A stretch of 64,000 nt of DNA, from contig CP000071.1 in NCBI GenBank assembly GCA_000002445.1, positions 1,632,001 to 1,696,000 on the forward strand, given 5' to 3'. This DNA is from Trypanosoma brucei (taxonomy: Eukaryota). The notes beneath the pieces were generated by a model, which was not told the origin of the DNA, made no database searches, and saw only the letters and a program-made list of their open reading frames with translations. Made by a program: the position numbers and the translations under genes. Shown one piece after another: positions 50,701-52,545 of the stretch; positions within the stretch are counted from its first letter, which is position 1, and each line of letters begins with the position of its first letter.

Positions 50701-52545
50701 GTGTGTTGCGCTAGGTATCGGATGTTACGGCATACAGTGAAATTGTGCGGGGCATTGCAGCATCTTTTAGATCATAGTACACGATTTATCAACAACCTAA
50801 TATTTCTTGCTGGCGACCATGCTTCAGCGGAAACGACACCAACCGACCGACACACTGCGAGTAGGGGTTCATCGGTGCAAACTCAAGGTGCGGCAGAGAA
50901 TTGGCACCAAACCCAATACGTGCATGCGGCCGAGGTGATACGGAATGCAGCCGCAAGGGACTACCTTCTTGACAGCGAGTCTGATACTGCAGAGTTGCAC
51001 GCCTCGCTTGTTACGGCCTTGATGCGAGGGACAAGATGGGGCAGTACTATCTCACAAGATACTGACATGCTGTTAATAAACGAGCTCGAGAGGGACGTTG
51101 CAGACCGTGTTGCCAGGATGTTTTTGCTTCCATCGCGGTTTATGTGGCGTTCGTGCCATCAAGCTGTACCCAACGGCGGGAGAGGCAATCAGTGCAAATG
51201 CAATGTGCTAGTTGTGCCGAAACGTTCTTCCGATTTGTCAAATGTTCGTCATCATGTTTCGTCGGGAGATGCGGATTCTGGAGGTGGCGGTGGCATTATG
51301 CACAGCAGTTCGCTTGAAAGTCTCATTGTGCTCATGAAAACCGCCAAGGCCCAAGCCCGCGCACGTTACTTGAGCTCACGGTTTAGCTGTCCCGATGATG
51401 AGAGTCGTATGTCGCAACGACTGGTGCTGTACTGCAGTGACCAGTCTGACAAGCTGCTTCTTCAAGCCGCACGGTGCACTGGCGTCCAACACGTGCGGAC
51501 ACTTCAAACAGTTTATTCACCAAAAGTGCACAACTACCCGATGCAAGTTGATATGCTGAAGGCGGCGTTGGCGGAGGATGTTTCTCATGGGTTTTACCCG
51601 TTGCTGGTCTGTGGCGTATTCGGTTCGCACGTGGCTGCGTCGGTTGATCCACTTCAAGAGATGGCTGAGTTGTGTCAGAAGCTTAAGTTGTGGTTTCACA
51701 TTGACGCCAGTCACTCCGGTCTCGCACTTGCGGCAGGCGCCGCTAGTGTAACCATGCCACAAGACACAACCGTAGCCTCAAGCATGGAAAAGAAAGCCGA
51801 AGTCGTAATGACAAAAGATACCGTGTGGGAAGAATACATGCATTCATTTAATCAAGCCGCCACCCTCGCTGACTCCGTTCACTTTGGTGTATCCTCGTCA
51901 TTTTTGCCGACTGCAGCTAGTGCCTCATCCACCGCTCTTCTTTATGTCTCAAATGTGGCTAAGGTCGATGCTGCCTTGCGTCATTTGAACAGATCAGCCG
52001 AATCATCCGTAAATGCATGGTGTGCTTCCTCTCGCGCACAGCAAATGTCTCAGATGCTCCAGTTGCGACTGGAACCACAGCACGTGCACGCCAATGAAAT
52101 CATCCGTCTGTCGCTGATCCTCCACCAAATGGACGACGCTTACGTTTCTAAGCGGGTGAGAGACCACCAGGCTGCCATGTACCACCTTCAGCAACGGATA
52201 CGCGCTGATGGACGCTTCGACTGCTCCGTTCATGCTTCGTGTTTTGGAATGGTGTTGTTCCGTTGGCTCTTGCTTGCAGACGAGGAGACAGAGGCGCTTA
52301 TGTGGCGCTGGGATGAACTGTTGAAAGCGCAGCGGGTGTCAAGCAACTTTGGAGAGGGAATTCGTCCATTTTTGGGGCTCGTGCGAATACAACGCCGGTT
52401 ACATATTTGTGTAGGTTTTGTGGGTGCTGTTGGTGGGGGTAAAAGCTGTTGCGCACCGTCTCTGAGTCAACGTGACGTGAACACGCTTGTTGATTCGCTG
52501 ACGGAGGCGGCCAGCTTTGGGAGAAATAAGGGCCGTGTCGTTTAG
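50701..52545 (+). CDS. Group II PLP-dependent decarboxylase-like protein lacking the catalytic lysine (probable pseudoenzyme)
   Basis: 'LVLYCSDQSDKLLLQAARCTGVQHVRTL' aligns with aromatic-amino-acid decarboxylase '[24 protein letters not shown]'. 'YPLLVCGVFGSHVAASVDPLQEMAELCQKLKLWFHIDASHSG' aligns with '[40 protein letters not shown]'. The downstream 'NPHKW' PLP-lysine motif is absent, and the PLP-stacking His in 'SDQAHS' is replaced ('SDQSDK'). Confidence 0.55.
   Translation: MCCARYRMLRHTVKLCGALQHLLDHSTRFINNLIFLAGDHASAETTPTDRHTASRGSSVQTQGAAENWHQTQYVHAAEVIRNAAARDYLLDSESDTAELHASLVTALMRGTRWGSTISQDTDMLLINELERDVADRVARMFLLPSRFMWRSCHQAVPNGGRGNQCKCNVLVVPKRSSDLSNVRHHVSSGDADSGGGGGIMHSSSLESLIVLMKTAKAQARARYLSSRFSCPDDESRMSQRLVLYCSDQSDKLLLQAARCTGVQHVRTLQTVYSPKVHNYPMQVDMLKAALAEDVSHGFYPLLVCGVFGSHVAASVDPLQEMAELCQKLKLWFHIDASHSGLALAAGAASVTMPQDTTVASSMEKKAEVVMTKDTVWEEYMHSFNQAATLADSVHFGVSSSFLPTAASASSTALLYVSNVAKVDAALRHLNRSAESSVNAWCASSRAQQMSQMLQLRLEPQHVHANEIIRLSLILHQMDDAYVSKRVRDHQAAMYHLQQRIRADGRFDCSVHASCFGMVLFRWLLLADEETEALMWRWDELLKAQRVSSNFGEGIRPFLGLVRIQRRLHICVGFVGAVGGGKSCCAPSLSQRDVNTLVDSLTEAASFGRNKGRVV

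What the first reader, a model, noticed from the sequence alone, without database searches (positions are those of the whole stretch)
50701..52545. Catalytically dead aromatic-amino-acid/glutamate decarboxylase-like protein (prozyme-like pseudoenzyme)
The ORF retains recognisable group II PLP-decarboxylase blocks ('LVLYCSDQ…', 'LLVCGVFGSHV…WFHIDASHSG'), but the Schiff-base Lys of the 'N-P-H-K-W' motif is missing and the PLP-stacking His is substituted. Trypanosomatids are known to use inactive paralogs ('prozymes') as allosteric activators of AdoMetDC and deoxyhypusine synthase. A dead PLP-decarboxylase homolog could play a comparable regulatory role or have acquired a new non-catalytic function.
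Basis: partly seen in the sequence, partly recalled or inferred. Interest (0 to 1): 0.6.

Follow-up and report, generated by a model that had tools for sequence, protein, structure and literature searches.

The report
Dead decarboxylase homolog in trypanosome mitochondria
This Trypanosoma brucei gene (Tb927.8.5680) encodes a protein that keeps the shape of an aromatic-amino-acid decarboxylase but has lost its catalytic machinery; it is the direct descendant of a still-intact enzyme in free-living relatives, is imported into the mitochondrion, and has no active partner of the 'prozyme' kind.

Summary
The ORF is Tb927.8.5680 (Q57X14; real start ATG 50722, 607 aa). It matches Pfam Pyridoxal_deC (E 9e-22), and its model has the full three-domain histidine/aromatic-amino-acid decarboxylase fold. 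The Schiff-base Lys, the stacking His192, Thr246, the phosphate ligands, the N-terminal substrate motif and the GRRFR motif are lost in every trypanosomatid ortholog; Asp271 and the structural core are kept.

The prozyme interpretation is not supported. The closest intact relatives are Bodo saltans-type decarboxylases, and the Bodo gene lies at the same syntenic position. So the trypanosomatid protein is the ortholog of an enzyme that decayed, not a dead paralog kept beside a live one. No intact close relative was found in trypanosomatids.

The protein is under purifying selection (dN/dS 0.28). Published data show it is detected by mass spectrometry, depends on ATOM40 for mitochondrial import, and is one of four TrypTag 'kinetoplast point(s)' proteins (tag-artefact caveat).

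Most likely it is a repurposed, non-catalytic mitochondrial protein, possibly kDNA-associated. No paper in the searched library names the gene. Interest is moderate.

The parts
50722..52545 (+). Coding sequence of Tb927.8.5680 (607 aa plus stop), an AADC-type pseudo-decarboxylase
   Evidence: Exact match to XP_847398.1/Q57X14; gene identifier from Peikert 2017 tables; Pfam PF00282 E 9e-22; AF2 model pTM 0.74; Foldseek hits to HDC/AADC
50701..50721 (+). Upstream in-frame extension from a GTG; not part of the protein
   Evidence: The ORF caller uses the bacterial code; the annotated protein starts at ATG 50722
50722..50787 (+). N-terminal presequence-like segment (aa 1-22, MLRHTVKLCGALQHLLDHSTRF); the boundary is approximate
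   Evidence: Basic and acid-poor in most orthologs, unlike the acidic N-termini of generic AADCs; MitoFates-positive and ATOM40-dependent abundance in Peikert 2017 Suppl. Data 6
50752..51120 (+). N-terminal helical domain (aa 11-133), lacking the HW..P.F..FP substrate-loop motif
   Evidence: Helices in the model; the motif is absent from all Lys-less orthologs; this is the least conserved part in the Lys-less clade but the most conserved in real enzymes
51154..51279 (+). Lineage-specific insertion 1 (aa 145-186) after LPSRFMW; predicted disordered
   Evidence: pLDDT below 50; absent from generic enzymes, short in Bodo-type enzymes, long and variable in trypanosomatids
51280..51747 (+). Conserved core of the large (cofactor-binding) domain (aa 187-342), the stretch matched by Pfam and PDB sequences
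   Evidence: pLDDT mostly 85-97; lowest column entropy in the Lys-less clade
51448..51450 (+). D243, at the position of the PLP-stacking His192 of AADC (YCSDQSDK vs YSSDQAHS)
   Evidence: Human AADC numbering; the column reads D/Q/H across orthologs
51628..51630 (+). H303, at the position of Thr246 of AADC (a PLP O3' contact, from my own knowledge)
   Evidence: the column varies (H/R/S/C/G/Q/A) within the Lys-less clade
51691..51720 (+). WFHIDASHSG block: Asp271 equivalent retained (D328, nt 51703-51705); new invariant S330 and H331 replace A273 and Y274
   Evidence: Invariant columns
51748..51813 (+). Lineage-specific insertion 2 (aa 343-364), containing the non-conserved 'KK'
   Evidence: pLDDT below 50; Lys columns not conserved
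51868..51909 (+). ADSVHFGVSSSFLP, the remnant of the ADS-x3-N-P-H-K-W strand; S392 (nt 51895-51897) is my ungapped motif-register estimate of the Schiff-base Lys303 position
   Evidence: Alignments. The two MAFFT runs place the Lys column at P396 or in a gap, but no ortholog has a Lys anywhere in this segment. HMMER cannot align this region even with a family profile
51991..52089 (+). Region corresponding to the mobile catalytic loop and the GRRFR.LK motif (aa 424-456); degenerate
   Evidence: Low pLDDT at 424-442; motif lost; high entropy in the Lys-less clade against low entropy in real enzymes
52090..52527 (+). C-terminal small domain (aa 457-602), with the clade-specific conserved block RADGRFD...FGMVLFRWLLLADEET (aa 494-523, nt 52201-52290) and QRR (aa 557-559)
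   Evidence: Invariant columns; entropy 1.2-1.4 against 1.8-1.9 in real enzymes; weak matches to the AADC C-domain

Best explanation
Tb927.8.5680 is a catalytically dead descendant of an aromatic-L-amino-acid-decarboxylase-type (group II, fold-type I PLP) enzyme.

Shown:
- It keeps the whole three-domain fold and the structural core.
- Every Lys-less ortholog examined, across the trypanosomatid genera sampled, has lost the Schiff-base lysine, the stacking His, Thr246, the phosphate ligands, the N-terminal substrate loop and the catalytic-loop/GRRFR motif.
- It is the positional ortholog of an intact, Lys-bearing decarboxylase in the free-living kinetoplastid Bodo saltans.
- No intact close relative was found in trypanosomatids.
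- It is under purifying selection.

From published data sets:
- The protein is expressed.
- Its level in purified mitochondria depends on the import pore ATOM40.
- An mNeonGreen-tagged version was scored as 'kinetoplast point(s)'.

Inferred:
- The ancestral enzyme lost catalysis on the trypanosomatid stem but was kept for a second, non-catalytic role.
- It now acts as a (probably dimeric) binding or scaffold protein in the mitochondrion, most likely in foci next to the kinetoplast DNA.
- Partner contacts would be made by the clade-specific conserved C-terminal block (RADGRFD...FRWL..ADEET, QRR), by the new invariant Ser-His beside the old cofactor site, and by the disordered lineage-specific insertions.
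- It does not work as a prozyme for a live paralog.
For: Homology and fold:
- Pfam PF00282, E 9e-22.
- PDB sequence hits to DHPAA synthase, HDC, TyDC and AADC.
- AF2 model with pTM 0.74, and Foldseek hits to HDC/AADC with target-normalised TM 0.68-0.71 over about 515 columns.

Loss of catalytic residues in all Lys-less orthologs (Trypanosoma species, Porcisia, Leptomonas, Novymonas, Angomonas, Strigomonas, Phytomonas and unnamed sequences):
- Shown: - The former cofactor positions vary freely among orthologs (H192 becomes D/Q/H; T246 becomes H/R/S/C/G/Q/A). That argues against any conserved ligand pocket.
- Constraint is relaxed where real enzymes are most conserved, and kept in the beta-core and C-domain.

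Orthology to an intact enzyme:
- The next-best hits of the exhaustive profile search keep HWQH..F.GYFP, SDQSH, DAAYAG and NGSKW, and they include Bodo saltans CUG88408.1.
- In the NJ tree the Lys-less clade has 100% support. It nests in the Bodo-type group (72% for the joint clade, 2% for the Bodo type alone).
- Synteny: the ortholog of the T. brucei 174-aa ORF at 49520-50044 lies just upstream of the decarboxylase gene in Bodo (42% identity, E 5e-34, one intervening gene). It also lies just upstream in a deep-branching Lys-less lineage.

No live partner:
- One search found no named trypanosomatid among the 120 best hits of the Bodo-type profile.
- One search found a single T. brucei cluster.

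Selection:
- 77 invariant columns across ten orthologs.
- dN/dS of 0.28 between T. b. brucei and T. b. gambiense, with 14 of 15 amino-acid changes outside the conserved blocks.

Expression and location:
- Peikert 2017 Suppl. Data 6: fold change 0.228 on ATOM40 RNAi, 3 of 4 replicates, p 0.028, MitoFates-positive.
- TrypTag sheet FigureS8F: one of 4 'kinetoplast point(s)' proteins.
- Another member of that class, Tb927.8.4240, was validated as a kDNA replication factor with an HA tag and expansion microscopy.

Precedent for a metabolic enzyme with a kDNA role:
- Alpha-ketoglutarate dehydrogenase E2 (Sykes & Hajduk 2013, cited in PMC10374059).
Against: - The non-catalytic role is inferred only. 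No interaction, knock-down or biochemical data for this protein were found. No paper in the library names it.
- The kinetoplast signal comes from one mNeonGreen tagging study. MitoTag reports that such tags give an artificial 'kinetoplast proximal enrichment' for matrix proteins.
- The gene is not in the hit lists of the genome-wide kDNA-loss RNAi screen. That screen has many false negatives: only 7 of 63 known kDNA proteins are in its 132-gene list.
- The protein is near-neutral (pI 6.2-7.9 across orthologs), so there is no sign of a basic DNA-binding protein.
- dN/dS of 0.28 shows weaker constraint than on the neighbouring KREPB8 (0.04).
- Absence of an intact paralog rests on a word-indexed search and on my own recollection of the T. 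brucei gene set, not on a scan of the genome.
- The tree is neighbour-joining on a long-branched clade, with 72% support for the key node.
- One intervening gene separates the syntenic anchor from the decarboxylase gene in Bodo.
Confidence: 0.55

Rival explanations
1. Generic mitochondrial matrix pseudoenzyme with no kDNA link. The protein is dead and imported as described above, but the kinetoplast foci are a tagging artefact. Its retained role would lie elsewhere in the matrix, for example as an assembly factor, chaperone-like subunit or regulator of another pathway.
For: MitoTag reports that mNeonGreen causes artificial kinetoplast-proximal enrichment of matrix proteins. The gene is not a hit in the kDNA-loss screen. 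Its pI is neutral. ATOM40-dependent import shows the organelle only.
Against: TrypTag curators separated 'kinetoplast point(s)' (4 proteins) from general mitochondrial signal, and one of the four has been validated independently. No ortholog matches any chain of the solved structures in the PDB copy searched, which to my knowledge includes trypanosomatid mitoribosome, assembly-intermediate and respiratory-complex structures: the best PDB sequence hit is an insect decarboxylase at 1e-17.
Confidence: 0.25
2. Prozyme-like activator. The dead subunit heterodimerises with a live PLP enzyme, completes or regulates its active site, and so controls an amine- or lipid-forming step. The only candidate partner would be mitochondrial sphingosine-1-phosphate lyase, TbSpl.
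For: Trypanosomatids use dead paralogs to activate AdoMetDC and deoxyhypusine synthase (PMC6221367, PMC3663545). Group II decarboxylases are obligate dimers with active sites at the interface (my own knowledge). TbSpl carries a PF00282 domain with an intact Lys328 and is mitochondrial (PMC7237492).
Against: No intact close paralog was found in trypanosomatids. The gene is the positional ortholog of the intact Bodo enzyme, not a duplicate. SPL is so distant that no SPL chain appears even at E <= 10. TbSpl staining is reticular, not punctate. The residues a dead subunit would donate across the interface (N-terminal loop, GRRFR motif) are themselves degenerate and variable.
Confidence: 0.06
3. 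Cryptic enzyme or small-molecule sensor. The protein still binds PLP, PMP, an amino acid or an amine without a covalent link. It would use the retained Asp328, the new invariant Ser330-His331 and perhaps the invariant Lys414. It would either catalyse a non-canonical reaction or report metabolite levels.
For: Asp271 equivalent and WFHIDASHSG are invariant, and new invariant Ser-His residues lie next to the old site. K414 is invariant in all orthologs. Reviews note that some 'pseudoenzymes' have migrated catalytic residues (PMC10211241 abstract).
Against: At least eight cofactor or substrate determinants are lost together, and several of those positions vary freely between orthologs, which a conserved pocket would not allow. 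K414 lies after the following beta-strand (strand 404-409, then helix 412-424). By the topology of the fold this is the end away from the cofactor; this is an inference and no distance was measured. The substrate-binding N-terminal motif is deleted.
Confidence: 0.07
4. Functionless relic: a decaying gene on its way to becoming a pseudogene.
For: All catalytic features are lost. dN/dS (0.28) is higher than in the neighbouring genes. Sequence coverage in proteomics is low, at 4-7%.
Against: The reading frame is intact in more than ten genera spanning the whole family, with 77 invariant columns. dN/dS is well below 1, and changes avoid the conserved blocks. The protein is detected by mass spectrometry and is imported.
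Confidence: 0.03

Closest known systems
Aromatic-L-amino-acid / histidine / tyrosine decarboxylases (group II PLP decarboxylases, Pfam PF00282; e.g. human AADC 3rbf, human HDC 4e1o, Drosophila DHPAA synthase 6jrl)
   Same: Common ancestry and the same three-domain fold. The GGG loop, SDQ, the W-x-H-x-D-A block with the Asp271 equivalent, the ADS strand and the C-domain core are retained.
   Different: There is no Schiff-base Lys, stacking His, Thr246, Asn300/His302 or Ser149, and no HW..P.F..FP or GRRFR.LK motif. There are two or more disordered insertions and a presequence-like N-terminus. The protein is mitochondrial rather than cytosolic.
Bodo saltans 'dopa decarboxylase, putative' CUG88408.1 and related environmental kinetoplastid-type enzymes (P0037, P0038, P0040, P0042, P0043, P0046, P0188)
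   Same: These are the closest relatives and share the syntenic position. They share the F-x-W extension after LP..F, the C/F-[ST]-DQS block and the TV..P...N[FY]P...ED..G.[IY]P block. Several also have presequence-like N-termini.
   Different: They keep all catalytic motifs, including N-G-S-K-W. They are presumably active enzymes, but this was not tested.
Trypanosomatid prozymes (AdoMetDC prozyme; deoxyhypusine synthase dead paralog)
   Same: Catalytically dead homologs of metabolic enzymes, conserved in trypanosomatids (PMC6221367, PMC3663545).
   Different: Prozymes are paralogs that coexist with, bind and activate a live copy. Here no live copy was found, and the dead gene is the ortholog of the live enzyme of Bodo.
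Metabolic enzymes with a second role at mitochondrial DNA (T. brucei alpha-ketoglutarate dehydrogenase E2; yeast Aco1 and Ilv5, the yeast examples from my own knowledge)
   Same: An enzyme-fold protein in the mitochondrion reported at the mitochondrial genome. This offers a route by which a moonlighting role could outlive catalysis.
   Different: Those proteins remain active enzymes, and their DNA-related role is shown experimentally. Here catalysis is gone, and the kDNA link rests on a single tagging data set with a known artefact.
KREPB8 and its paralog (non-catalytic RNase III-like partners of editing endonucleases), encoded immediately downstream in the window
   Same: Dead-enzyme-fold mitochondrial proteins of trypanosomes.
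   Different: Unrelated fold. They do pair with live paralogs (KREN1-3). Adjacency in a polycistronic unit implies no functional link.

Membership tests
Group II PLP-dependent decarboxylase (PF00282; AADC/HDC/TyDC type) | Significant sequence match to the family profile | tested here: met
   77.7 bits against a gathering cut-off of 27, E 9e-22, but only profile positions 97-244 of 375
Group II PLP-dependent decarboxylase (PF00282; AADC/HDC/TyDC type) | Fold-type I three-domain architecture | tested here: met
   AF2 model pTM 0.74; Foldseek hits to HDC/AADC at E 8e-22, target-normalised TM 0.68-0.71
Group II PLP-dependent decarboxylase (PF00282; AADC/HDC/TyDC type) | Schiff-base lysine in N-x-[HS]-K-W after the ADS strand (Lys303 of AADC) | tested here: not met
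   No Lys in this segment in any of more than 15 orthologs. The Lys residues nearby are not conserved. The only invariant Lys (K414) is displaced by about 22 residues
Group II PLP-dependent decarboxylase (PF00282; AADC/HDC/TyDC type) | His stacking on the PLP ring (His192, S-D-Q-x-H-S) | tested here: not met
   D243 in T. brucei; D/Q/H among orthologs
Group II PLP-dependent decarboxylase (PF00282; AADC/HDC/TyDC type) | Asp binding the pyridine nitrogen (Asp271, H-x-D-A-A) | tested here: met
   D328 is invariant
Group II PLP-dependent decarboxylase (PF00282; AADC/HDC/TyDC type) | Phosphate and O3' ligands (Ser149, Thr246, Asn300, His302) | tested here: not met
   They are L, H (variable), G (variable) and S respectively
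Group II PLP-dependent decarboxylase (PF00282; AADC/HDC/TyDC type) | N-terminal substrate loop HW..P.F..FP and the catalytic-loop/GRRFR.LK motif | tested here: not met
   Deleted or unrecognisable in all Lys-less orthologs
Group II PLP-dependent decarboxylase (PF00282; AADC/HDC/TyDC type) | PLP binding and decarboxylase activity | not testable with these tools
   Needs recombinant protein
Trypanosomatid prozyme (dead paralog that activates a live paralog) | Catalytic residues lost | tested here: met
Trypanosomatid prozyme (dead paralog that activates a live paralog) | A live paralog of the same family in the same genome | tested here: not met
   No named trypanosomatid among the 120 best hits of the Bodo-type profile; a single T. 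brucei cluster. Limit: the search is word-indexed and is not a genome scan
Trypanosomatid prozyme (dead paralog that activates a live paralog) | Origin by duplication of the live gene | tested here: not met
   Shared synteny with the intact Bodo gene, and nesting in the Bodo-type clade, indicate orthology
Trypanosomatid prozyme (dead paralog that activates a live paralog) | Heteromer formation with activation of the partner | not testable with these tools
   Needs co-purification and enzyme assays
Kinetoplast (kDNA)-associated protein | Import into the mitochondrion | tested here: met
   Published data read here: ATOM40 RNAi fold change 0.228, p 0.028, MitoFates-positive
Kinetoplast (kDNA)-associated protein | Localisation at the kDNA, confirmed with a small tag or an antibody | tested here: inconclusive
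   Only the TrypTag mNeonGreen 'kinetoplast point(s)' record exists, and an artefact is known for this tag
Kinetoplast (kDNA)-associated protein | kDNA loss or altered minicircles/maxicircles on depletion | tested here: inconclusive
   Absent from the hit lists of the kDNA-loss RNAi screen, but that screen missed most known kDNA factors

The most novel reading that the evidence does not exclude
The ancestral kinetoplastid decarboxylase already moonlighted at the mitochondrial nucleoid. When trypanosomatids became parasites, amine synthesis became dispensable and only the nucleoid role survived. This left a dead PLP-fold protein as a genuine component of a previously undescribed class of kinetoplast-associated foci, together with Tb927.8.4240-type replication factors. 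It would be a clear case of an enzyme becoming a structural protein in an orthologous lineage, without gene duplication, and a new handle on kDNA biology.
Probability: 0.2. Interest if true: 0.7.

Novelty: new variant of a known kind. Interest (0 to 1): 0.45.

Why it matters
Pseudoenzymes are well known in trypanosomes, but the textbook cases are dead paralogs that activate live ones. Here an enzyme lineage lost catalysis without a duplicate, yet has been kept under selection across the trypanosomatid genera sampled, in the mitochondrion and possibly at the kinetoplast.

If the kDNA link holds, it adds a component to a class of kinetoplast foci of unknown function. It also gives a natural system (an intact Bodo ortholog against dead trypanosomatid orthologs) for asking how a moonlighting role outlives catalysis.

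On the practical side, it corrects a misleading automatic name ('tyrosine decarboxylase') that could feed wrong reactions into metabolic reconstructions of these parasites.

Tried and rejected
- HMMER cannot align the Lys region even with a family profile. I relied instead on two MAFFT alignments anchored on the ADS strand and on the secondary structure of the model.
- P0193 had been mislabelled as Bodo-type and actually pairs with an oomycete sequence, so the clade tests were recomputed.
- Literature searches by gene identifier, old identifier, UniProt accession and RefSeq accession found no paper. 'Tyrosine decarboxylase' with T. brucei gave only irrelevant reviews.
- Pyrih 2023 (MitoTag) and Alsford 2011 (RIT-seq) are not held, or I gave wrong identifiers. 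The MitoTag class and the fitness phenotype of this gene therefore remain unknown to me.
- The gene is absent from the supplements of the kinetoplast-protein preprint (none are held), of the structure-based annotation paper and of the kDNA-loss screen.
- I tested the idea of a basic DNA-binding protein through pI and net charge. It is not supported.
- I considered K357/K358 and K414 as displaced catalytic lysines. K357/K358 are rejected because they are not conserved and lie in a disordered insertion. K414 is unlikely on topology but is not formally excluded.
- The pseudogene reading is rejected.
- Pfam found nothing for the three neighbouring ORFs. Two of them were identified through PDB sequences instead.
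Full report
**What is there**

The window is Trypanosoma brucei chromosomal DNA. The ORF caller lists 50701-52545 (+) from a GTG. The real start is the ATG at 50722. The resulting 607-aa product is identical to T. b. brucei TREU927 XP_847398.1 / UniProt Q57X14. The supplementary tables of Peikert et al. 2017 name this protein Tb927.8.5680 (old identifier Tb08.26E13.360). The next ORF downstream (53081-54187) is KREPB8, identical to PDB chain 9dei_B. The one after it (54435-55631) is a KREPB8 paralog. 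This fixes the locus. No other ORF of at least 100 aa overlaps the gene on either strand.

**Checking the observation**

- The similarity to group II PLP decarboxylases is real. Pfam Pyridoxal_deC scores 77.7 bits (cut-off 27), E 9e-22.
- The best solved relatives by sequence are insect DHPAA synthase, plant aldehyde synthases and tyrosine decarboxylases, human histidine decarboxylase and human AADC, at E 1e-17 to 1e-14. GAD and CSAD are weaker.
- The sequence match covers only residues 191-345 (profile positions 97-244 of 375). It stops just before the place where the Schiff-base lysine should be. Even a profile built from ten trypanosomatid orthologs cannot be aligned by HMMER through that region.
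- An AlphaFold2 model (pTM 0.74; core pLDDT mostly 85-97) shows that the whole chain still adopts the three-domain fold. Foldseek finds HDC, AADC and relatives at E about 1e-21, with target-normalised TM 0.68-0.71 over about 515 columns.

**The catalytic positions**

I fixed numbering on human AADC with the HMMER alignment and used two independent MAFFT alignments.

- His192 (S-D-Q-A-H-S) is D243 in T. brucei. Among orthologs it is D, Q or H.
- Thr246 is H303, and the position is highly variable among orthologs.
- Ser149 is Leu.
- Asp271 is retained (D328) in an invariant WFHIDASHSG block.
- The strand ADS-x3-N-x-[HS]-K-W is replaced by ADSVHFGVS-SSFLP-type sequences. None contains a Lys in any ortholog.
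- The N-terminal HW..P.F..FP motif is deleted.
- The GRRFR.LK motif after the catalytic loop is unrecognisable.

It fails. K357/K358 lie in insertion 343-364 (pLDDT below 50), and their alignment columns in ten orthologs read KRSAPAVF-- and KVVVLMLG--. The only invariant Lys between the Asp block and the C-domain is K414. It follows the next beta-strand, and by the topology of the fold it lies at the end away from the cofactor. That is an inference, since I could not measure distances.

**How far the dead form extends and where it came from**

An exhaustive profile search of 1.84 billion representatives, with the sequences and names retrieved afterwards, shows two groups.

- Group A lacks the Lys. 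It comprises Trypanosoma (brucei, congolense, vivax, cruzi, conorhini, grayi, theileri, rangeli), Porcisia, Leptomonas, Novymonas, Angomonas, Strigomonas, Phytomonas and several unnamed assemblies.
- Group B gives the next-best hits (E 1e-46 to 1e-28). It keeps HWQH..F.GYFP, SDQSH, DAAYAG and N-G-S-K-W, and it includes the Bodo saltans 'dopa decarboxylase, putative' CUG88408.1.

In a neighbour-joining tree (436 columns, 200 bootstraps) group A is monophyletic (100%). It nests within the Bodo-type group: 72% for the joint clade, 2% for the Bodo type alone, and 100% for the next larger clade.

Synteny agrees with the tree:

- The small gene just upstream in T. brucei (49520-50044, 174 aa) has its ortholog directly upstream of the Lys-less gene in a deep-branching lineage (38-46% identity).
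- In Bodo saltans the same ortholog (42% identity, E 5e-34) lies upstream of the intact decarboxylase gene on the same strand, with one unrelated gene in between.

The simplest reading is that Tb927.8.5680 is the positional ortholog of an enzyme that is still intact in free-living kinetoplastids. Catalysis would have been lost before the trypanosomatids sampled here diverged.

**The prozyme idea**

A prozyme needs a live paralog in the same cell. I found none:

- The T. brucei query retrieves a single T. brucei cluster.
- A profile of the Bodo-type enzymes retrieves bodonid-like environmental sequences and then generic plant, animal and bacterial enzymes. There is no named trypanosomatid among its 120 best hits.
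- The only other PF00282 protein that I know of in T. brucei is sphingosine-1-phosphate lyase. It has its Lys328 and is mitochondrial with reticular staining (PMC7237492). It is so distant that no SPL chain appears in the PDB sequence search even at E <= 10.
- The elements that one subunit of these dimers contributes to its partner's active site are themselves degenerate and variable in group A.

I therefore rate the prozyme reading as unlikely (about 0.06). The limits are that the search was word-indexed and that I could not scan the genomes directly.

**Is it still doing something?**

The evidence says yes.

- Ten orthologs share 77 invariant columns.
- Between T. b. brucei and T. b. gambiense, dN/dS is 0.28 (15 non-synonymous and 16 synonymous differences). 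Fourteen of the 15 amino-acid changes fall outside the conserved blocks. The neighbours give 0.13 and 0.04.
- The pattern of constraint has shifted. The stretches that are most conserved in real enzymes (residues 81-120 and 441-480 in T. brucei numbering) are among the least conserved in group A.
- The beta-core (201-340) and a C-terminal block are more conserved than in real enzymes. That block is RADGRFD...FGMV.FRWL..ADEET (aa 494-523) plus QRR (557-559). Group A is taxonomically narrower, so only the relative pattern counts.
- New invariant residues Ser330-His331 sit beside the old cofactor site. Other former cofactor positions vary freely, which argues against a conserved ligand pocket.

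**Where it is**

These points come from published data sets that I read here.

- In Peikert et al. 2017 the protein was detected by mass spectrometry. It fell 4.4-fold in gradient-purified mitochondria after ATOM40 RNAi (3 of 4 replicates, p 0.028). It is listed as a new mitochondrial candidate with a MitoFates-predicted presequence.
- The N-termini of the orthologs are basic and poor in acidic residues, unlike the acidic N-termini of generic AADCs.
- In TrypTag it is one of only four proteins classed as 'kinetoplast point(s)'. The authors describe these as novel kinetoplast-associated foci of unknown function.
- One of the other three, Tb927.8.4240, has since been validated with an HA tag and expansion microscopy as a kDNA replication factor.

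Against a kDNA role:

- mNeonGreen tags are reported to give an artificial kinetoplast-proximal enrichment for matrix proteins.
- The gene is not in the hit lists of the kDNA-loss RNAi screen. That screen recovered only 7 of 63 known kDNA proteins in its primary list.
- The protein is not basic (pI 6.2-7.9).

**Best explanation and rivals**

My best explanation is a repurposed, non-catalytic mitochondrial protein. It would probably still be a dimer, as its fold family is (my own knowledge). It would act through protein contacts made by the conserved C-terminal block and the lineage-specific insertions, possibly in kDNA-adjacent foci. It would have been retained because the ancestral enzyme had a second role that outlived catalysis.

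- Shown: the pseudoenzyme status, the orthology to the Bodo enzyme and purifying selection.
- From published data: expression, import and the tagged localisation.
- Inferred: the scaffold mechanism and the kDNA link.

Precedent exists for a metabolic enzyme with a kDNA function in T. brucei: alpha-ketoglutarate dehydrogenase E2 (Sykes & Hajduk 2013, cited in PMC10374059).

The rivals are:

- a matrix role unrelated to kDNA (0.25);
- a cryptic ligand-binding or catalytic function (0.07);
- a prozyme (0.06);
- a functionless relic (0.03).

**Comparison with what is known, and novelty**

By descent and fold the protein belongs to the PF00282 family. It fails the defining functional features of a PLP decarboxylase, so it should not be called 'tyrosine decarboxylase', as UniProt's automatic naming does. 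It fails two of the three testable defining features of a prozyme. No paper in the searchable library mentions the gene under any identifier.

I rate it a new variant of a known kind: a pseudoenzyme, but one that arose by decay of the ortholog itself rather than of a duplicate, in an enzyme family where I know of no characterised dead member. Interest is moderate (0.45). The finding is solid and tidy, and the kinetoplast hint is attractive. However, pseudoenzymes are common in these organisms, the domain is already flagged in databases, and the function is still open.

Noticed in passing
window 53081-54187 (+) and 54435-55631 (+): Tandem paralogs directly downstream. The first is KREPB8 (identical to PDB 9dei_B). 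The second is a KREPB8 paralog (E 7e-37), probably KREPB10 by my recollection. These are non-catalytic RNase III-like partners of the RNA-editing endonucleases, so true 'dead partner of a live paralog' proteins lie right next to the finding. Pfam finds nothing in either.
   Followed up: partly
window 49520-50044 (+): A 174-aa ORF with no Pfam match. It is conserved with synteny from Bodo saltans (42% identity, E 5e-34) through a deep-branching kinetoplastid lineage to T. brucei, with dN/dS of 0.13 against T. b. gambiense. It served as the syntenic anchor. Its function is unknown.
   Followed up: partly
window 51691-51720 (+): In the Lys-less clade the block next to the old cofactor site has new invariant residues (HIDASHSG: A273 to Ser330, Y274 to His331). 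Other former cofactor positions vary freely. K414 (51961-51963) is also invariant. Unexplained.
   Followed up: partly
L004 10001-11635 (Bodo saltans CYKH01001637.1) and proteins P0188, P0192, P0043: Several intact Bodo-type decarboxylases carry basic, acid-poor N-terminal extensions that look like mitochondrial presequences. Mitochondrial targeting may therefore predate the loss of catalysis. The Bodo N-terminal extension depends on which Met is used.
   Followed up: no
L001-L003 (Logan assemblies SRR22803264, SRR22803237, SRR22803251): A deep-branching Lys-less ortholog (P0041/P0175, about 26% identical to T. brucei) from an unidentified kinetoplastid. It shares the upstream synteny but has a SYS1-like gene downstream instead of KREPB8. 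It has a Trp-Arg-Lys just before the second strand of the hairpin, and it lacks His192.
   Followed up: partly
database names of orthologs P0002, P0003, P0005-P0007, P0010, P0032: UniProt and NCBI automatic names call these Lys-less proteins 'tyrosine decarboxylase'. This is very likely a misannotation that could propagate into metabolic models.
   Followed up: yes
whole window 1-64000: GC skew is positive in 31 of 32 2-kb bins and the cumulative skew rises steadily. All genes identified near the finding are on the + strand, as expected for one trypanosome polycistronic unit.
   Followed up: no
literature (PMC13191291, Table 1): The top 20 of the kDNA-loss RNAi screen includes another PLP protein, Tb927.7.1910 (glycine decarboxylase, rank 18). 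This is a curiosity only, with no link to Tb927.8.5680 shown.
   Followed up: no
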